In this document: one piece after another, positions 2,963-44,485 of the stretch
How the letters are laid out: each line of letters opens with the position of its first letter
Position numbering within the stretch: the stretch's first letter is position 1
Source: a phage
NCBI GenBank assembly: GCA_024790105.1
Contig: GCA_024790105.1_3053.1
Length of the DNA stretch: 64,000 nt
Strand: one strand, 5' to 3'
Notes under the pieces: model-generated
Told to the model about the DNA's origin: nothing
Databases searched by the model: none
The model's input: the letters and a program-made list of their open reading frames with translations, nothing else
Position numbers and translations under genes: made by a program

Positions 2963-3493
2963 TTAAACTTCTGCTATAATTTTTCCATCTTTTTCTACTT
3001 GAAAATAGGTGTAAGGAATCGTTGCAGTACATACTAAAGCCGGGTCTGAATCTTCCGTGTAGCTAAATTCTACTTCAGACAGATCAGAAACCCAAGGCTT
3101 ATAAAAATTTATTGACATCACGATTTCAGTTTTACTATTATCTAAAATGTAAAGCGTAATGTATTCAGGACCTGTTTTTTGGGCAGTATTTTCGCCTGTA
3201 AGATAGTTGCTAGTTCCTAGCATCCATTCATACATTCCTATCCATGACTTAAGTTCTTCATCAACTATAAATCTCACGATGAGTGGGTCGTACTCAAATG
3301 TAACACCTGGACGTTGTGCTCGGCCTAGTCCAAACGGCCCAGTCACGGTATCAGTAACAGGTATCCTAATTCCCGGAATAGGAACTGACTGAGCATTTAA
3401 AGTAAAAGCAGATGTAGTATTACTATGTGGTATTGATACTACAAAGTTAGTTGTATTTGCTTGGTTAAAAATTTGTTGCAGAGCTTGCGACAT
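2963..3493 (-). CDS. 3: tail completion / tube terminator protein gp3
   Basis: synteny 1-3-2-4; internal ATG (MSQALQQ...) with GAGGAA RBS gives 176 aa. Confidence 0.75.
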   Translation of the reverse strand: MSQALQQIFNQANTTNFVVSIPHSNTTSAFTLNAQSVPIPGIRIPVTDTVTGPFGLGRAQRPGVTFEYDPLIVRFIVDEELKSWIGMYEWMLGTSNYLTGENTAQKTGPEYITLYILDNSKTEIVMSINFYKPWVSDLSEVEFSYTEDSDPALVCTATIPYTYFQVEKDGKIIAEV

Positions 3494-4923: not shown

Positions 4924-5514
4924 ATGCTCTTTACATTTTTTGATCCGATTGAATATGCGGCCAAAACGGTGAATAAAAACGCGCCGACTATTCCTATGAC
5001 AGATATTTTTAGAAACTATAAAGACTATTTCAAACGCGCTCTTGCTGGATACCGCTTACGTACTTATTATATTAAAGGTTCACCACGCCCGGAAGAATTA
5101 GCAAATACTATATATGGAAATCCACAGTTGTATTGGGTTTTATTGATGTGTAATGATAATTATGACCCGTATTATGGATGGATTACTTCGCAAGAAGCTG
5201 CTTATCAGGCATCTATACAAAAATACAAAAACGTAGGTGGAGACCAAATAGTATATCATGTAAATGAGAACGGTGAAAAATTTTATAATTTAGTATCATA
5301 CGATGATAATCCATATGTTTGGTATGACAAAGGTGATAAAGCTAGAAAATATCCTCAATATGAAGGAGCACTTGCTGCTGTTAATACGTATGAAGCTGCT
5401 GTTCTTGAAAATGAAAAACTTCGTCAAATAAAAATAATAGCAAAATCAGACATTAATTCATTTATGAACGACCTTATACGTATAATGGAGAAATCTTATG
5501 GAAATGATAAGTAA
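4924..5514 (+). CDS. 53: baseplate wedge protein gp53
   Basis: 196 aa; synteny immediately upstream of gene 5. Confidence 0.8.
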   Translation: MLFTFFDPIEYAAKTVNKNAPTIPMTDIFRNYKDYFKRALAGYRLRTYYIKGSPRPEELANTIYGNPQLYWVLLMCNDNYDPYYGWITSQEAAYQASIQKYKNVGGDQIVYHVNENGEKFYNLVSYDDNPYVWYDKGDKARKYPQYEGALAAVNTYEAAVLENEKLRQIKIIAKSDINSFMNDLIRIMEKSYGNDK

Positions 5515-7228
5515 TAACCTTAATTGGTTTGTTGGTGTTGTTGAAGATAGAATGGACCCATTAAAATTAGGTCGTGTTCGTGTTCGTGTGGTTGGTCTGC
5601 ATCCACCACAAAGAGCACAAGGTGATGTAATGGGTATTCCAACTGAAAAATTGCCATGGATGTCAGTTATTCAGCCTATAACTTCGGCAGCTATGTCTGG
5701 AATTGGAGGTTCCGTTACTGGACCGGTAGAAGGAACTAGAGTTTATGGTCATTTTTTGGACAAATGGAAAACTAACGGAATTGTCCTTGGCACGTATGGT
5801 GGAATAGTTCGCGAAAAACCGAATAGACTTGAAGGATTTTCTGACCCAACTGGGCAGTATCCTAGACGTTTAGGAAATGATACTAACGTACTAAACCAAG
5901 GCGGAGAAGTAGGATATGATTCATCTTCTAACATTATCCAAGATAGTAACTTAGACACTGCAATAAATCCTGATGATAGACCACTATCAGAGATTCCAAC
6001 TGATGATAATCCAAATATGTCAATGGCTGAAATGCTTCGCCGTGATGAAGGATTAAGACTAAAAGTTTATTGGGATACCGAAGGATATCCGACAATTGGT
6101 ATTGGTCATCTTATCATGAAGCAGCCAGTTCGTGATATGGCTCAAATTAATAAAGTTTTATCGAAACAAGTTGGTCGTGAAATTACTGGAAACCCAGGTT
6201 CTATTACAATGGAAGAAGCGGTAACTTTATTTGAACGCGATTTGGCTGATATGCAACGTGACATTAAATCACATTCTAAAGTAGGACCAGTCTGGCAAGC
6301 TGTCAACCGTTCTCGTCAAATGGCATTAGAAAATATGGCATTTCAGATGGGTGTTGGCGGTGTAGCTAAATTTAACACAATGTTAACTGCTATGTTAGCA
6401 GGAGATTGGGAAAAAGCATATAAAGCTGGTCGTGATTCATTGTGGTATCAACAAACAAAAGGCCGTGCATCCCGTGTTACCATGATTATTCTTACGGGGA
6501 ATTTGGAATCATATGGTGTTGAAGTGAAAACTCCAGCTAGGTCTTTGTCGGCAATGGCTGCTACTGTGGCGAAGTCTTCTGATCCAGCTGACCCTCCTAT
6601 TCCAAATGACTCAAGAATTTTATTCAAAGAACCAGTTTCTTCATATAAAGGCGAATATCCTTATGTGCATACAATGGAAACTGAAAGTGGACATATTCAG
6701 GAATTTGATGATACCCCTGGGCAAGAACGATATAGATTAGTTCATCCAACTGGAACTTATGAAGAAGTATCACCGTCAGGGAGAAGAACAAGAAAAACTG
6801 TTGATAATTTGTATGATATAACCAACGCTGATGGTAATTTTTTGGTAGCCGGTGATAAAAAGACTAACGTCGGTGGTTCAGAAATTTATTATAACATGGA
6901 TAATCGTCTTCACCAAATAGATGGAAGCAATACAATATTTGTACGTGGCGATGAAACTAAGACGGTTGAAGGTAATGGAACTATCCTAGTTAAAGGTAAT
7001 GTTACTATTGTAGTTGAAGGTAATGCTGACATTACAGTTAAAGGAGATGCTACTACTTTAGTTGAAGGAAATCAGACTAATACAGTAAATGGAAATCTTT
7101 CTTGGAAAGTTGCTGGGACAGTTGATTGGGACGTTGGTGGTGATTGGACAGAAAAAATGGCATCTATGAGTTCTATTTCATCTGGTCAATACACAATTGA
7201 TGGTAGCCGTATAGACGTAGGTTTATAA
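5498..7228 (+). CDS. 5: baseplate central spike with lysozyme domain (gp5)
   Basis: 576 aa; lysozyme-like segment EMLRRDEGLRLKVYWDTEGYPTIGIGHL; C-terminal 8-residue beta-helix repeats (VEGNGTILVKGNVTIVVEGNADITVKGD). Confidence 0.95.
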   Translation: MEMISNNLNWFVGVVEDRMDPLKLGRVRVRVVGLHPPQRAQGDVMGIPTEKLPWMSVIQPITSAAMSGIGGSVTGPVEGTRVYGHFLDKWKTNGIVLGTYGGIVREKPNRLEGFSDPTGQYPRRLGNDTNVLNQGGEVGYDSSSNIIQDSNLDTAINPDDRPLSEIPTDDNPNMSMAEMLRRDEGLRLKVYWDTEGYPTIGIGHLIMKQPVRDMAQINKVLSKQVGREITGNPGSITMEEAVTLFERDLADMQRDIKSHSKVGPVWQAVNRSRQMALENMAFQMGVGGVAKFNTMLTAMLAGDWEKAYKAGRDSLWYQQTKGRASRVTMIILTGNLESYGVEVKTPARSLSAMAATVAKSSDPADPPIPNDSRILFKEPVSSYKGEYPYVHTMETESGHIQEFDDTPGQERYRLVHPTGTYEEVSPSGRRTRKTVDNLYDITNADGNFLVAGDKKTNVGGSEIYYNMDNRLHQIDGSNTIFVRGDETKTVEGNGTILVKGNVTIVVEGNADITVKGDATTLVEGNQTNTVNGNLSWKVAGTVDWDVGGDWTEKMASMSSISSGQYTIDGSRIDVGL

Positions 7229-7247
7229 ATAATTCCAGAGGTGAATT

Positions 7248-8114
7248 ATGAAAAAATCTAACACAGTTCAATTTAGATACATATATAAAACAACCGTTAC
7301 TAATCCGAAAGGATTAGTACGTGTTTATATTGGTAAACATGAATCTAGATATTTTGATTTAGAAAATGATAAGTATAGAGGTTCCGGTGATTATATTAAA
7401 AAGATACGTAATAAACCTGGTTATAAAATAGATTTTGAAATAATTGAATTTGTTTCTACTTATGAAATTCTCAATTCAAGAGAAAGATATTGGATTTCGA
7501 AATATAAATCATCTGATATTCTATGTACCAATATAAAATCCGGCGGTGATGGTTTTTCATCCGAAGATTTGAAGAGAATGTGGTCTAATCCTGAATATAG
7601 GAAAGCTCAATTGAAGGCATTAGCTAAATCAACGTCAACTAAAGAATTTTCAGAGAAAATATCTAAAATAAACAAAGAAAGATGCGCATCGCCAGAATAT
7701 CGAAAGAAAATGAGTAATGCGATGAAAACTGCTTTTGAAAATGATCCAACATTAAAAATTCGTATTTCTAATACCGTTAAATCTTTATGGAAATCCGATG
7801 AATATAGAAACAAATTAATTAATCATCCAGGAAAAATAGAAGGAACGAAACAATCATGGAATGATCCTTTGATAAGAAAATCGAGATTAGATGCTAGAAA
7901 TAAAAAACTAAGATCAGTTGAACCTTGGATTAGTATAGAAAAAGTCAAAAAACTTTGGGAGGATTTGGGAAAACCACATCCACAGAAATACAAATGGTTT
8001 AGAGAAAAAGCAATTGAACACGACCTCCCGGATGTAAGTTATAACGCAATTTTAAAAGCGTTGAAAAAATGTGATTATAAATTTACATCATTAGAGAATT
8101 CAACAATTGGCTAA
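7248..8114 (+). CDS. GIY-YIG family homing endonuclease (Seg-like), free-standing
   Basis: N-terminal YIY...VYIGK motif; C-terminal repeated NUMOD3-like segments (SNPEYRKAQ, ASPEYRKKMS, KSDEYRNKL). Confidence 0.8.
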   Translation: MKKSNTVQFRYIYKTTVTNPKGLVRVYIGKHESRYFDLENDKYRGSGDYIKKIRNKPGYKIDFEIIEFVSTYEILNSRERYWISKYKSSDILCTNIKSGGDGFSSEDLKRMWSNPEYRKAQLKALAKSTSTKEFSEKISKINKERCASPEYRKKMSNAMKTAFENDPTLKIRISNTVKSLWKSDEYRNKLINHPGKIEGTKQSWNDPLIRKSRLDARNKKLRSVEPWISIEKVKKLWEDLGKPHPQKYKWFREKAIEHDLPDVSYNAILKALKKCDYKFTSLENSTIG

Positions 8115-8643
8115 CATACTTCCAATGAGCGCTGATTTAGGAGAATCCATGGAAGGTTCTTCTATCGACGTCACCTTTACCGCTCAATTAGAAACAGGTG
8201 AAACGTTAGTATCTATAAATATAACTAGTTACGAAGAAACTCCTGGGGTTTTAGTAGAAGAAAATCGTTTATATGGAACGTATGAATCTGTATTTGGATT
8301 TGGAAATGACGCGTTGAAATATCGTTTAGGCGATGAATTTAAAACTGCTGCTTCATGGGAAGAACTTCCTACTGATTCTGACACTCAGTTGTATTTGTGG
8401 AAAGCTCCTCAAAATCTCCAGAAGACATTCACTTACGAAGTAACATTAATATATGACTACCAAGAACAAAGTGAATCTGGAGGTTCTGGCAGTAATTCTA
8501 GGTCATCTTCTGATACTACTGAACCGACAGATCCTCCTACTCCAGTAAGAAAAACTCTCGTTAAAAATTATACTAAAACTATAGTTGGAAATTGGAGTCG
8601 TTGGGCTAATAAATTAAGAAGCTATGTGTATGAGAGGTCATAG
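8107..8643 (+). CDS. hypothetical protein with Ser/Thr/Pro-rich linker (in gene 5-5.4 cluster)
   Basis: 178-aa ORF; low-complexity segment SESGGSGSNSRSSSDTTEPTDPPTPV; exact start uncertain. Confidence 0.5.
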   Translation: MANILPMSADLGESMEGSSIDVTFTAQLETGETLVSINITSYEETPGVLVEENRLYGTYESVFGFGNDALKYRLGDEFKTAASWEELPTDSDTQLYLWKAPQNLQKTFTYEVTLIYDYQEQSESGGSGSNSRSSSDTTEPTDPPTPVRKTLVKNYTKTIVGNWSRWANKLRSYVYERS

Positions 8644-8937
8644 ATGTCAGGATTAAGTTATGATAAGTGTGTTACTGCTGGCCATGAAGCGTGGCCTCCA
8701 ACAGTTGTGAATGCTACACAAAGTAAAGTATTCACTGGAGGAATTGCTGTTCTAATAGCAGGCGATCCAATTACAGAACATACAGAAATCAAAAAGCCAT
8801 ATGAAACACATGGCGGAGTGACACAACCCAGAACTTCTAAGGTATATGTCACTGGAAAGAAAGCTGTTCAAATGGCTGATCCAATATCATGCGGTGATAC
8901 TGTGGCTCAGGCATCATCTAAAGTATTCATTAAATAG
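8644..8937 (+). CDS. 5.4: PAAR-repeat spike tip protein gp5.4
   Basis: 97 aa, matches T4 gp5.4 length and position before gene 6. Confidence 0.8.
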
Positions 8938-41667: not shown

Positions 41668-42285
41668 ATGTACCACTTTGTATATGAAACAACAAATCTA
41701 ATAAATGGTAAAAAGTATATAGGAAAACACTCTACTGATGACTTGAATGATGGTTACCTTGGTTCCGGTAAGGCAATTCAGCAGGCTATAAAGAAATATG
41801 GTGAAAACAATTTCTCTAGAACAATACTAAAAGAGTTTAAAACTTCCGAAGAAGCGTACATGTATGAAGAAGAAATTATAACTCCTGAAATAATAAAAAG
41901 CAAAAATTATTATAATATGAAACCCGGTGGAATTGGTGGAATTGTTATGACTACAGAGGTTATAGCAAAGATGAAAGAATCTTCCGCTAAGAGATTTGAA
42001 AACTCACCGGGCACGGTATTAGGTACAACTTGTTACACTAATGGAACTAAAAATATTTTTATTAAACCTGGAGAACTTGTTCCAGAAGGATTTGTAAAAG
42101 GGATGGTTCATCCTAATAGAAAGTCCAGAAAAGGATGTAAAGTCAAACCGACTACCACAGGAACTTTTTGGGTCAATAATGGTGCAATAAATAAATTAAT
42201 ACAGCCAGACGGTATTATTCCCGACGGATTTATTAAAGGTCGTCTCATGAAAAGAGATTCTAAAGGCAAATTTAGTAAGGCATAA
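41668..42285 (+). CDS. segE: GIY-YIG homing endonuclease (SegE-like)
   Basis: MYHFVYETTNLINGKKYIGKH GIY-YIG motif; 205 aa; sits immediately upstream of uvsW. Confidence 0.75.
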   Translation: MYHFVYETTNLINGKKYIGKHSTDDLNDGYLGSGKAIQQAIKKYGENNFSRTILKEFKTSEEAYMYEEEIITPEIIKSKNYYNMKPGGIGGIVMTTEVIAKMKESSAKRFENSPGTVLGTTCYTNGTKNIFIKPGELVPEGFVKGMVHPNRKSRKGCKVKPTTTGTFWVNNGAINKLIQPDGIIPDGFIKGRLMKRDSKGKFSKA

Positions 42286-42287
42286 TT

Positions 42288-43796
42288 ATGGATATTAAAG
42301 TACATTTTCACGACTTCAGTCATGTACGCATCGATTGTGAAGAGAGCACGTTCCACGAATTAAGAGATTTCTTTTCGTTTGAGGCCGATGGATATAGATT
42401 TAACCCTCGCTTCAGATATGGCAACTGGGATGGACGAATCCGTCTTTTAGATTATAATCGTCTTCTTCCATTCGGCTTAGTCGGGCAAATTAAAAAGTTC
42501 TGTGATAACTTTGGCTATAAAGCCTGGATTGACCCACAAATTAACGAAAAAGAAGAATTATCAAGAAAAGATTTTGATGAATGGCTTTCTAAATTAGAAA
42601 TCTATTCAGGAAATAAAAGAATTGAACCACATTGGTATCAAAAAGATGCAGTGTTCGAAGGATTAGTTAATCGTCGTAGAATTCTTAATCTTCCAACATC
42701 CGCTGGTAAATCGTTAATTCAAGCTTTGCTTGCGCGATATTATTTGGAAAATTACGAAGGTAAAATTCTTATCATTGTTCCAACAACTGCTCTAACAACT
42801 CAGATGGCTGATGACTTTGTTGACTATCGTTTATTCAGTCATGCAATGATAAAGAAAATTGGTGGCGGAGCATCAAAAGATGATAAATGTAAAAATGATG
42901 CACCAGTCATTGTTGGTACATGGCAAACTGTAGTTAAACAGCCCAAAGAGTGGTTTTCTCAGTTTGGAATGATGATGAATGATGAATGCCATCTTGCTAC
43001 AGGAAAAAGTATTTCATCTATCATATCAGGTTTAAATAACTGCATGTTCAAATTCGGTTTGTCTGGTTCATTACGTGATGGCAAAGCCAATATCATGCAG
43101 TATGTTGGAATGTTTGGTGAAATATTTAAGCCAGTAACGACTTCTAAGTTAATGGAAGATGGACAAGTAACTGAGCTAAAAATTAATAGTATTTTTCTTC
43201 GCTATCCCGATGAGTTCACTACTAAATTAAAGGGAAAAACTTACCAAGAAGAAATAAAAATTATTACTGGGCTCAGTAAAAGAAATAAATGGATCGCTAA
43301 ATTAGCTATTAAGCTTGCGCAAAAAGATGAAAACGCTTTTGTCATGTTTAAACATGTATCACATGGTAAAGCTATTTTCGATTTAATTAAAAATGAATAC
43401 GATAAAGTTTATTACGTATCAGGGGAAGTTGATACCGAAACCCGCAACGTAATGAAAACTTTAGCTGAAAACGGTAAAGGAATAATTATAGTAGCTAGTT
43501 ATGGCGTATTTTCTACTGGTATTTCAGTTAAAAATCTGCATCATGTTGTTTTAGCGCACGGCGTTAAATCAAAAATTATTGTATTACAAACAATCGGTCG
43601 TGTATTACGTAAGCATGGTTCTAAGACAATAGCAACAGTCTGGGACCTCATAGATGACGCGGGTGTAGTTTCTAAATCAAAAACATCTTCTAAAAAATAC
43701 TCGCATTTAAACTATCTTTTAAAACATGGACTTGATCGTATTCAGCGTTATGCTGATGAAAAGTTTAATTATGTGATGAAAGAGGTTAAACTTTGA
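42288..43796 (+). CDS. uvsW: UvsW DNA/RNA helicase
   Basis: 502 aa; Walker A PTSAGKS, DECH box MMNDECH. Confidence 0.9.
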   Translation: MDIKVHFHDFSHVRIDCEESTFHELRDFFSFEADGYRFNPRFRYGNWDGRIRLLDYNRLLPFGLVGQIKKFCDNFGYKAWIDPQINEKEELSRKDFDEWLSKLEIYSGNKRIEPHWYQKDAVFEGLVNRRRILNLPTSAGKSLIQALLARYYLENYEGKILIIVPTTALTTQMADDFVDYRLFSHAMIKKIGGGASKDDKCKNDAPVIVGTWQTVVKQPKEWFSQFGMMMNDECHLATGKSISSIISGLNNCMFKFGLSGSLRDGKANIMQYVGMFGEIFKPVTTSKLMEDGQVTELKINSIFLRYPDEFTTKLKGKTYQEEIKIITGLSKRNKWIAKLAIKLAQKDENAFVMFKHVSHGKAIFDLIKNEYDKVYYVSGEVDTETRNVMKTLAENGKGIIIVASYGVFSTGISVKNLHHVVLAHGVKSKIIVLQTIGRVLRKHGSKTIATVWDLIDDAGVVSKSKTSSKKYSHLNYLLKHGLDRIQRYADEKFNYVMKEVKL

Positions 43797-44485
43797 ATTA
43801 TAAATTAATATATGATAATTTAATTAATAGAGCCCAGAATCGGGCTCGCATTAGTGGATACACTGAAACTCATCATATAATTCCTAGATGTATGGGTGGT
43901 ACAGATGATAAGTGTAATTTAGTAGAACTAACGGCTGAAGAACATTTTATAGCCCATAAACTTTTAGCTAAAATTCATCCAAACCATTACGGTATAATTA
44001 AAGCTGTTATATGTATGGGGATGAATTCAAATACTCATGAAAGACACGTTAATAAATCTTACGCATGGGAACGTCGTAAAATGGCAGAACTTCAATCCGG
44101 CGAAGGTAATCCATTTTACGGAAAACACCATACGGAAGAACATAAACAATATATGTCAAAACTCATGAAAAGTCGTCCAATTACATGGGGAAATAAAATT
44201 AGTAAAACTAAAAGAATGAACCCAACGAAATGGACTGAAGAAGCTAAAAGATTACATTCAATCAATCAATCGGGTAAAAATAACGGCATGTATGGAAGGA
44301 AACATTCCGCTAAATCTATTCAGAAAATTAAAGATAACATGCCGGATAATTCAGGAGCTAATAACCCAGCTGCTAAACCTATAGAAGTAAATGGTGTTAA
44401 ATATAAATGTATGAAAGATGCTTCTAAAGCTACTGGATTATCAATGTACAAACTAAGAATACTTAGAAAAACAGTTAATTTATAA
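43793..44485 (+). CDS. HNH family homing endonuclease (Mob-like), paralog of 22387-23199
   Basis: N-terminus MNYKLIYDNLINRAQNR...HHIIPRCMGGTDDKCNLVELTAEEHFIAH parallels the other HNH ORF; overlaps uvsW stop. Confidence 0.8.
   Translation: MNYKLIYDNLINRAQNRARISGYTETHHIIPRCMGGTDDKCNLVELTAEEHFIAHKLLAKIHPNHYGIIKAVICMGMNSNTHERHVNKSYAWERRKMAELQSGEGNPFYGKHHTEEHKQYMSKLMKSRPITWGNKISKTKRMNPTKWTEEAKRLHSINQSGKNNGMYGRKHSAKSIQKIKDNMPDNSGANNPAAKPIEVNGVKYKCMKDASKATGLSMYKLRILRKTVNL

What the first reader, a model, noticed from the sequence alone, without database searches (positions are those of the whole stretch)
7248..8114. GIY-YIG (Seg-like) endonuclease immediately downstream of gene 5
The protein has a clear GIY-YIG N-terminal module (FRYIYKTT...VYIGKH) and three NUMOD3-like repeats in the C-terminal half. 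It is free-standing, with its own RBS (GAGGTGA), between the spike gene and the 5.4-type PAAR gene. T4 carries a seg gene in roughly this region from memory, but I cannot confirm whether this is the same family member or an independent insertion.
Basis: partly seen in the sequence, partly recalled or inferred. Interest (0 to 1): 0.45.

Follow-up and report, generated by a model that had tools for sequence, protein, structure and literature searches.

The report
Seg-like homing endonuclease after gene 5
This is an intact but uncharacterised selfish "homing" nuclease gene of the T4 Seg family, found in phage T6 and about 6% of its relatives at the junction of the tail-spike gene 5 and gene 5.1; it is a correct but fairly ordinary annotation, and not the same gene or site as T4's segC.

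The parts
7204..8105 (+). The mobile cassette (902 bp). It replaces 13 bp (ATCGAGGATTGAC) of the empty-site allele found in T2, T4 and PP01.
   Evidence: Junction alignments of window/T6 against T2/PP01/T4. The cassette differs by 0.1-0.3% between phages whose flanks differ by 2.6-5.1%.
7204..7228 (+). Replacement 3' end of gene 5 carried by the cassette: GG(T) AGC CGT ATA GAC GTA GGT TTA TAA. This changes gp5 from ...GSRIDIG* to ...GSRIDVGL*. Nearly every codon is recoded relative to the empty allele GGA TCG AGG ATT GAC ATT GGC TAA.
   Evidence: A similar tail (GSRVDIGL*, GGTTTATAAATA) is native in Salmonella phage S16, which lacks the gene.
7224..7231 (+). TATAAATA, the T4 late-promoter consensus, overlapping the gene 5 stop codon (7226-7228), 17 nt before the ATG.
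   Evidence: 22 matches in the window against 9.9 expected. Annotated as 'predicted late promoter' at the same position in Yersinia phage fPS-2. Absent from the empty allele. Function is inferred.
7238..7244 (+). Shine-Dalgarno sequence GAGGTGA.
   Evidence: Read directly from the sequence.
7248..8114 (+). Seg-like endonuclease ORF, 288 aa.
   Evidence: dN/dS 0.098 against the 86%-identical phage F2 copy.
7269..7556 (+). GIY-YIG catalytic domain (aa 8-103). Key residues: Y13, Y27, G29, H31, Y43-x-G45-S46-G47, E79, N95.
7298..7319 (+). Intragenic hairpin TACTAATCC-GAAA-GGATTAGTA, encoding TNPKGLV in the loop between the GIY and YIG strands.
   Evidence: z -3.1. It is kept, with two compensatory synonymous pair changes, in F2/CEV1 and in a metagenomic copy, and it occurs at the homologous place in T4 segF. 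The review PMC2988022 states that segF has an intrinsic terminator in its 5' coding region. A terminator or attenuator role here is inferred.
7557..7916 (+). Helical repeat region (aa 104-223) with NUMOD3-like units and a W-x-x-PEYR-x-K repeat. Presumed extended DNA-binding linker.
   Evidence: AlphaFold secondary structure. Home-made NUMOD3 HMM, 19.5 bits, 0 of 300 shuffles reach it. The aligned columns of relatives carry PF07460.
7929..8072 (+). C-terminal three-helix domain (aa 228-275) shared with SegA and SegF (W..IEKxKxxWexxGK...AIE..xP..SY). Presumed winged-helix/HTH DNA-binding domain.
7223..7230 (+). Left copy of the 8-bp direct repeat TTATAAAT. The right copy is at 8075-8082. Deletion between the two copies (852 bp) gives the footprint alleles.
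   Evidence: positions. Footprint sequences of ESh36 and LF73P1. Four such records exist.
8106..8114 (+). ATTGGCTAA. These are the original last codons and stop of gene 5, now the last codons and stop of the endonuclease ORF. They overlap the TTG start of gene 5.1 (8107).
   Evidence: The 5.1 N-terminus (L/M)A(N/Q)ILP... is conserved from this start in T2, T4, F2, S16 and a metagenomic contig, where it is an ATG.

Best explanation
The ORF encodes a free-standing, Seg-type GIY-YIG homing endonuclease. It is part of a 902-bp mobile cassette inserted at the overlap of gene 5 and gene 5.1. Proposed mechanism, by analogy with SegF, SegG and SegE; no step below has been tested experimentally. The gene is transcribed late, from its own TATAAATA promoter and by read-through from gene 5. 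In a mixed infection with a T-even phage that has the empty junction, the enzyme binds through its helical repeat region and C-terminal helix domain. It then cuts the naive allele in or near the 3' end of gene 5 or the 5' end of 5.1. Phage recombination repairs the break from the cassette-bearing genome, which copies the cassette into the recipient (intronless homing with local marker exclusion). The carrier is protected because the 25-bp tail of gene 5 is recoded and the junction is split by 0.9 kb. The insertion is non-disruptive. It supplies a new end for essential gene 5, and it keeps the old TTGGCTAA stop/start overlap, so 5.1 is now coupled to the endonuclease ORF.
For: GIY-YIG fold and catalytic residues. 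Family-level similarity to the experimentally active T4 Segs, closest to SegF and SegA and including the C-terminal domain. Presence/absence polymorphism at one exact site: about 34 carriers against 486 uninterrupted junctions out of 518 records. Carriers span Tequatrovirus and Mosigvirus and phages of Escherichia, Shigella, Yersinia and Salmonella. The cassette is more than 10-fold less diverged (0.1-0.3%) than the flanking gene 5 and 5.1 (2.6-5.1%) in the same three phages. Purifying selection: dN/dS 0.098, pN/pS 0.16, similar to gp5 at 0.22. The gene 5 tail is recoded and linked to the cassette. Late-promoter motif and SD. Deletion footprints that keep the recoded tail fit the gain-and-loss cycle of homing endonuclease genes.
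Against: No cleavage or homing experiment exists, and no paper characterising this protein was found. The target site is only inferred. The recoded gene 5 tail resembles the native tail of S16-type phages, so it may be co-converted donor flank and not an immunity adaptation. The residue equivalent to I-TevI Arg27 cannot be aligned with confidence, although the same is true of active T4 Segs. Curated Pfam models do not recognise the domain. Only about 6% of related genomes carry it, so its drive is not overwhelming.
Confidence: 0.78

Rival explanations
1. It is a catalytically dead or no longer mobile relic. It persists only by linkage to essential baseplate genes and spreads by ordinary recombination.
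For: Low frequency, about 6% of records. Precise losses occur. T4 itself holds decayed endonuclease genes, for example segC+5.3, which is a frameshifted copy of a 196-aa gene. Arg27 equivalent unclear.
Against: The ORF is intact in all roughly 35 records with >=60% identity. dN/dS is about 0.1 across lineages that are 86% identical. All residues invariant in the family are retained. The cassette is nearly identical across backgrounds that are 3-5% diverged, which ordinary recombination without drive explains poorly.
Confidence: 0.1
2. It is an active nuclease whose main selected role benefits the phage and is not selfish. Examples would be SegB-like break-induced segmental amplification of anti-defence loci, or degradation or exclusion of competing phage genomes at many sites.
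Confidence: 0.08
3. It is simply the T6 orthologue of T4 SegC, the seg gene of this region.
For: Same neighbourhood, between gene 5 and gene 5.4, and the same superfamily.
Against: Different insertion site: 5/5.1 here against 5.1/5.3 for segC. Only 30% identity over 96 aa, lower than to SegF. Different C-terminal architecture. Both genes coexist in 5 records.
Confidence: 0.01

Closest known systems
T4 SegF (free-standing GIY-YIG homing endonuclease between genes 56 and soc; targets gene 56 of T2)
   Same: Best T4 match: 32% over 167 aa. Shares the extra 'xPKGxx' insertion between the GIY and YIG strands and the GKHES motif. Shares the C-terminal LW..LGKP helix domain. Has a stable GAAA/AAAG-loop hairpin at the same codons in the 5' coding region, described for segF as an intrinsic terminator (PMC2988022).
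   Different: Different locus and presumably a different target. 288 aa against 224 aa, with a much longer helical repeat region. Has its own late-promoter motif, whereas segF is listed as a promoter-less cassette. The hairpin stem is AU-rich and its U-tract is interrupted. Uncharacterised.
T4 SegC (between 5.1 and 5.3)
   Same: GIY-YIG Seg family, in the same gene 5 to gene 6 baseplate cluster. Both flank gene 5.1.
   Different: Sits on the other side of 5.1. 30% identity over the catalytic domain only. Its C-terminal half is NUMOD3 plus an I-TevI-like HTH. The T4 copy is frameshifted into segC (140 aa) plus 5.3. The two genes coexist in 5 records.
T4 SegA and SegB
   Same: SegA aligns end to end: 23% identity, blastp alignment covering ORF288 residues 1-273 of 288 and SegA 1-215 of 221, including the C-terminal W..IEKIKEIWENSGK...AIEAGFPNKSY domain. 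SegB shares the LWSTPEYREKF repeat unit.
   Different: Low identity, different loci (uvsX/beta-gt; tRNA cluster), and shorter linkers.
I-TevI (intron-encoded GIY-YIG endonuclease; structures 1LN0/1MK0)
   Different: Free-standing and not intron-encoded. No zinc finger. Arg27/His40 not alignable; it has the Seg-type GxH...YxGSG motif instead.

Membership tests
GIY-YIG nuclease superfamily | GIY and YIG motifs on two adjacent beta-strands in an N-terminal domain of about 100 aa | tested here: met
   Y11-I12-Y13 and Y27-I28-G29. Y13, Y27 and G29 are invariant in 85 relatives. The model places them on strands E9-18 and E24-33.
GIY-YIG nuclease superfamily | Catalytic/metal-binding Glu (I-TevI E75) and conserved Asn (N90) | tested here: met
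   E79 and N95 are invariant. They align to E75 and N90 in the profile alignment with 1LN0.
GIY-YIG nuclease superfamily | Conserved Arg after the YIG motif (I-TevI R27) | tested here: inconclusive
   The R27 region of I-TevI falls in an insertion relative to the family profile. ORF288 has G29-K30-H31...R34. T4 SegA-F have the same GxH motif without an alignable Arg, and most of them are reported as active (PMC2988022).
GIY-YIG nuclease superfamily | GIY-YIG alpha/beta fold | tested here: met
GIY-YIG nuclease superfamily | Match to curated models PF01541 / PF19835 (SegE_GIY-YIG) above threshold | tested here: not met
   No hit at E<=0.1 for the protein itself. TIGR01453 scores only 19.7 bits against a cut-off of 56. 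Relatives at 30-37% identity do match: 8 of 13 hit PF19835 and 4 of 13 hit PF01541. PHROG 314 'homing endonuclease' scores 1.2e-25.
T4-type Seg free-standing homing endonucleases | Own ORF between conserved phage genes, present or absent at one exact site among close relatives | tested here: met
   About 34 carriers, 486 uninterrupted junctions and 4 footprints among about 518 records. The junctions are identical in the T6-type, F2-type and metagenomic copies.
T4-type Seg free-standing homing endonucleases | Sequence relationship to SegA-G | tested here: met
   SegF 32% over 167 aa; SegB 26% over 192 aa; SegA 23% over 286 alignment columns; SegC 30% over 96 aa; SegD 30% over 117 aa. This is family-level relationship only; there is no orthologue.
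T4-type Seg free-standing homing endonucleases | Site-specific double-strand cleavage of the endonuclease-less allele near the insertion site | not testable with these tools
   Only indirect evidence: the naive junction is >=99% identical in 488 records, and the carrier allele is recoded and split.
T4-type Seg free-standing homing endonucleases | Endonuclease-dependent unidirectional transfer (homing / marker exclusion) in mixed infection | not testable with these tools
   Indirect: cassette divergence of 0.1-0.3% against 2.6-5.1% in the flanks.
T4 SegC orthologue | Same insertion site (5.1/5.3) and high identity to SegC | tested here: not met
   The site here is 5/5.1. Identity is 30% over 96 aa. 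The two genes coexist in 5 records.
NUMOD3 DNA-binding motif (PF07460) | Match to the NUMOD3 model | tested here: inconclusive
   Pfam gives no hit at E<=0.1. An HMM built here from 82 motif instances of relatives scores 19.5 bits, with the best unit at aa 148-160 (14.2 bits), and 0 of 300 shuffles reach that score. This is comparable to SegA at 16.8 and SegD at 16.2.

The most novel reading that the evidence does not exclude
The cassette may be a self-contained invasion module aimed at the stop/start overlap of essential spike gene 5 and gene 5.1. It carries a recoded replacement end for gene 5 that doubles as immunity to its own nuclease and as a late promoter. It hijacks the translational coupling to 5.1. 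It throttles itself with a conserved 5'-proximal intragenic terminator hairpin inherited from a common ancestor with segF. The footprint alleles would then be naturally occurring nuclease-resistant, endonuclease-free survivors, so this locus would be a complete, observable homing cycle (invasion, fixation, loss, resistance) in well-studied T-even phages.
Probability: 0.35. Interest if true: 0.45.

Novelty: new member of a known kind. Interest (0 to 1): 0.3.

Why it matters
It adds one uncharacterised, apparently functional member to the classic T-even Seg endonucleases. This member is in T6, a model phage in which another Seg (SegB) was recently shown to drive anti-defence gene amplification (PMC13096335). 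Carrier, naive and footprint alleles all exist in cultured phages such as T6, T2/T4 and ESh36. The target, the immunity mechanism and the homing efficiency could therefore be tested directly with existing strains. It also explains a local difference between T6 and T4/T2 at the tip of the gp5 spike (IG* against VGL*), and it clarifies the true start of gene 5.1. It does not reveal a new kind of system.

Tried and rejected
- **Pfam and NCBIfam on the protein alone.** They gave only spurious sub-threshold hits (GerD, GBP repeat; TIGR01453 at 19.7 bits). These were rejected as chance or low-complexity matches to the Lys/Glu-rich repeat region.
- **phmmer against PDB with the single sequence.** Nothing relevant was found. 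Only the family profile worked.
- **An I-TevI/segB-style hairpin that sequesters the RBS.** The fold of 7185-7285 contains a small AU-rich stem around the SD, but the energy is no better than shuffles (z -0.32). Not supported.
- **A sigma-70 promoter upstream of the ORF.** None was found. The scan gave fewer sites than shuffles did.
- **A long co-conversion tract.** Apart from the 25-bp recoded tail, no flanking SNPs are shared by carriers against non-carriers within 700-800 bp. The flanks are mosaic.
- **Self-BLAST of the repeat region.** It did not detect the repeats. They are too short and degenerate, and are seen only by eye, by the HMM and by secondary structure.
- **Origin of 'T4_ev151', which carries both endonuclease genes.** One literature hit, uninformative.
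- **Literature searches for a characterisation of this gene.** Nothing was found beyond a count of 6 seg-like genes in T6 (PMC2993671).

Full report
**1. The observation**

The window holds an ATG-initiated ORF at 7248-8114 (+) of 288 aa. It is preceded by GAGGTGA at 7238-7244. It follows gene 5, the spike-lysozyme gene at 5498-7228, which matches Pfam Gp5_OB, Phage_lysozyme and Gp5_C. Downstream come gene 5.1 (PHROG 1168), the PAAR gene 5.4 at 8644-8937 (PF05488) and gene 6. The ORF therefore lies between 5 and 5.1, not directly next to the PAAR gene.

T6ncORF142'. The same protein occurs in ACG-C40, D5505, T4_ev151 and others. A few records call it 'homing endonuclease' or 'Seg-like homing endonuclease, GIY-YIG family'. 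At the DNA level the window is 98.7% identical to T6 over 6900-8700, so it comes from a T6-like Tequatrovirus and not from T6 itself.

**2. Is it a GIY-YIG enzyme?**

Curated models do not detect it.
- Pfam gives no GIY-YIG, SegE_GIY-YIG or NUMOD3 hit at E<=0.1.
- NCBIfam gives only a sub-threshold hit to the group I intron endonuclease model (19.7 bits against a cut-off of 56).
- PHROG 314 'homing endonuclease' matches at 1.2e-25.

The word-indexed protein search found 13 relatives. In their alignment Y11, I12, Y13, Y27, I28, G29, Y43, G45, S46, G47, E79 and N95 are invariant.
- A profile of that alignment hits the I-TevI catalytic domain (1LN0 E 1.7e-6; 1MK0 E 3.1e-5). In that alignment E79 matches E75 and N95 matches N90.
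- Eight of the 13 members match PF19835, four match PF01541 and three match NUMOD3.
- The same profile finds 99,254 cluster representatives at E<=1e-3 in the exhaustive library, so this is a very large family.
- In an 85-sequence alignment Y13, Y27, G29, Y43, G45, S46, G47, E79, N95, G99 and G100 stay invariant.

An AlphaFold2 model built on that alignment has mean pLDDT 78, and >90 over most of residues 10-100.
- Foldseek on the whole model was not significant.

The equivalent of I-TevI Arg27 cannot be aligned. ORF288 has the Seg-type G-K-H ... Y-x-G-S-G arrangement also seen in T4 SegA-F. The review PMC2988022 lists most of those proteins as active.

**3. The rest of the protein**

Residues 104-223 are predicted as about eight short helices. 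They carry a recurring unit:
- SSEDLKRMWSNPEYRKAQL
- SEKISKINKERCASPEYRKKMSNAMK
- RISNTVKSLWKSDEYRNKL
- TKQSWNDPLIRKSRL

An HMM I built from 82 NUMOD3 instances of relatives scores 19.5 bits on ORF288. It finds units at 136-143, 148-160 (14.2 bits) and 182-190. No shuffle out of 300 reaches that total (maximum 8.4). The score is comparable to SegA (16.8) and SegD (16.2). The repeats are therefore NUMOD3-related but divergent, and only one is convincing.

The architecture is catalytic domain, then extended helical linker, then a small C-terminal DNA-binding domain. This is the modular plan of I-TevI and the Segs (established knowledge; PMC2988022).

**4. Relation to the T4 Segs**

I fetched all T4 seg genes and compared them with ORF288 by blastp.

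| T4 protein | Identity | Aligned length | E-value |
|---|---|---|---|
| SegF | 32% | 167 aa | 1.4e-9 |
| SegB | 26% | 192 aa | not recorded |
| SegA | 23% | 286 columns | not recorded |
| SegD | 30% | 117 aa | not recorded |
| SegC | 30% | 96 aa | not recorded |
| SegE | 38% | 52 aa | not recorded |

SegG and I-TevI/II give no significant blastp match. None of these is an orthologue.

T4's order is 5, 5.1, segC, 5.3, 5.4, 6. The review lists the segC insertion site as 5.1/5.3. The window's order is 5, ORF288, 5.1, 5.4, 6. T4, T2 and PP01 have nothing between 5 and 5.1. Five records (T4_ev151, Manna, LH2, SP21535, CJY920) carry both ORF288 and a full-length 196-aa segC.

**5. Junction anatomy**

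The two alleles, shown with the replaced segment between bars:
- Naive allele: ...ATTGATGG|ATCGAGGATTGAC|ATTGGCTAATATACTTCC...
- Carrier allele...ATTGATGG|TAGCCGTATAGACGTAGGTTTATAAATAATTCCAGAGGTGAATTATG ... GAATTCAACA|ATTGGCTAA...

A 902-bp cassette (7204-8105) thus replaces 13 bp.

Left end:
- The cassette supplies a new gene 5 end, GGT AGC CGT ATA GAC GTA GGT TTA TAA.
- This is recoded at almost every codon relative to GGA TCG AGG ATT GAC ATT GGC TAA.
- gp5 changes from ...GSRIDIG* to ...GSRIDVGL*.
- TATAAATA at 7224-7231 overlaps the new stop codon. It is the T4 late-promoter consensus. It is annotated as a predicted late promoter in phage fPS-2 and is absent from the naive allele.

Right end:
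- The endonuclease ORF runs into the old gene 5 end and uses the old stop (ATT GGC TAA, 8106-8114).
- That sequence also contains the start of 5.1. The N-terminus (L/M)A(N/Q)ILP... is conserved from the TTG at 8107 in T2, T4 and F2.
- It is an ATG in S16 and in a metagenomic contig, where it overlaps the endonuclease stop as ATGGCTAA.
- The T2 record also annotates 5.1 from this TTG.

The cassette therefore sits exactly in the 5/5.1 stop-start overlap. It gives gene 5 a new end and leaves 5.1 coupled to the endonuclease ORF. The coupling itself is inferred.

**6. Population evidence for mobility**

Counts from the phage record collection:
- A 121-bp probe across the naive junction is uninterrupted in 486 of 518 records, and >=99% identical in 488.
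- The left junction of the cassette is complete in 34 records. 33 records cover >=80% of 6900-8700.
- Carriers include phages of Escherichia, Shigella, Yersinia and Salmonella, the more distant F2/ZQ3 lineage (86% protein identity) and Mosigvirus CEV1.
- A 78%-identical copy on a metagenomic contig has the same neighbours and the same junction logic.

Divergence among window, T6 and T4_ev151:

| Region | Differences |
|---|---|
| Cassette | 0.11-0.33% |
| Last 1.5 kb of gene 5 | 3.7-5.1% |
| Gene 5.1 | 2.6-4.0% |

This is the pattern expected from recent horizontal spread into diverged backgrounds. Beyond the 25-bp tail I saw no carrier-specific flanking SNPs.

Between the T6-type and F2-type copies dS is 0.93 and dN is 0.091, giving dN/dS 0.098 (pN/pS 0.16). 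The constraint is comparable to gp5 at 0.22. The protein is therefore under selection.

**7. Loss alleles**

Four records (ESh36, 215Ecol030PP, LF73P3, LF73P1) match only the first 35 nt of the junction probe. Their sequence is the recoded gene 5 tail, then TTATAAAT, then the last 32 nt of the endonuclease ORF. This is exactly a deletion between the 8-bp direct repeats at 7223-7230 and 8075-8082. These records are endonuclease-free alleles that keep the recoded tail.

LF73P1 combines an F2-type left tail with a T6-type right remnant. This indicates either a second deletion event or later recombination.

S16-type phages never carried the gene, yet their gene 5 natively ends in ...GGTTTATAAATA (GSRVDIGL*). 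The 'recoded' tail is therefore probably donor-lineage sequence that travels with the cassette. Whether it also confers immunity to cleavage is untested.

**8. Expression features**

The SD and late-promoter motif are described above. An RBS-sequestering hairpin of the I-TevI/segB type is not supported (z -0.32).

Inside the ORF a 9-bp hairpin with a GAAA loop lies at 7298-7319. It is much more stable than shuffles (z -3.1).
- It encodes TNPKGLV, which lies between the GIY and YIG strands.
- F2/CEV1 and the metagenomic copy encode the same peptide with different codons. They keep the stem through two compensatory pair changes, each T:A to C:G.
- T4 segF has a GC-rich hairpin followed by UUUU at the homologous codons (RTPKGVF).

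In ORF288 the stem is AU-rich and the U-tract is interrupted, so I propose a weak terminator or attenuator role only as an inference. With three variants plus segF, the covariation evidence is suggestive and not conclusive.

**9. Mechanism and comparison**

The best-supported reading is a free-standing Seg-type homing endonuclease that practises intronless homing as shown for SegF, SegG and SegE (PMC2988022, PMC2993671). It would be expressed late, cleave the naive 5/5.1 region of a co-infecting phage, and be copied in by recombinational repair. Cleavage, target and homing are all unshown.

Rivals are an inactive relic, a SegB-like 'useful' nuclease (PMC13096335) and SegC orthology. They are weighed in the rival section; SegC orthology is refuted.

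**10. Novelty and verdict**

Petrov et al. (2010) already counted six seg-like genes in T6, and the T6 record flags this ORF as seg-like. I found no paper that characterises it. It is a new, uncharacterised member of a known kind.

The junction design, the takeover of the 5.1 coupling, the footprint alleles and the hairpin shared with segF are useful details. They make a clean experimental system but do not amount to a new type of element. Interest 0.3.

Noticed in passing
L003 5197-5792 (T4 NC_000866 80196-80791) versus L010 4383-4973: T4's annotated segC (140 aa) plus gene 5.3 look like a frameshifted version of a single 196-aa SegC ORF. That ORF is intact in T4_ev151 and in four other phages. 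The window lacks both segC and 5.3.
   Followed up: partly
window 8107-8643: Gene 5.1 most likely starts at the TTG at 8107, overlapping the preceding stop codon in TTGGCTAA, and not at the ATG at 8149 used in the T4/T6/PP01 annotations. The 14 extra residues (LANILPMSADLGES) are conserved in F2, in S16 (annotated ATG start) and in a metagenomic contig (ATG start).
   Followed up: yes
L012 2501-2560 (Shigella phage ESh36) and L014 2501-2560 (Tequatrovirus LF73P1); also 215Ecol030PP and LF73P3: These are natural deletion footprints of the cassette. The recoded gene 5 tail is joined at TTATAAAT to the last 32 nt of the endonuclease ORF. LF73P1 has an F2-type left side and a T6-type right side.
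   Followed up: yes
window 7298-7319; L011 about 3051-3072; L004 (T4 segF, minus strand) codons 13-19: A hairpin within the coding sequence is conserved by compensatory synonymous changes across the ORF288 clade. It is also present at the homologous codons of T4 segF, where the literature describes an intragenic intrinsic terminator.
   Followed up: partly
window 7204-7228: Carriers of the cassette have a different gp5 C-terminus (…IDVGL against …IDIG). From general knowledge this is the tip of the spike beta-helix, next to the gp5.4 PAAR cap. Any structural consequence is unknown.
   Followed up: no
window 7248-8111 versus L011 3001-3861: Synonymous divergence between the T6-type and F2-type copies falls steeply from 5' to 3' (pS 0.82, 0.43, 0.26 for the three thirds of the gene). 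This suggests recombination within the gene, or a mosaic origin.
   Followed up: no
window 41668-42282 (+): A second Seg gene is present: a SegE orthologue 98.5% identical to T4 SegE.
   Followed up: no
window 43793-44485 (+): A 230-aa ORF has an HNH motif (HHIIPR...N...H) and NUMOD3-like repeats (GKHHTEEHKQYMS, GRKHSAKSIQKIK). Its C-terminus resembles that of I-TevI. It is probably a Mob-like free-standing endonuclease.
   Followed up: no
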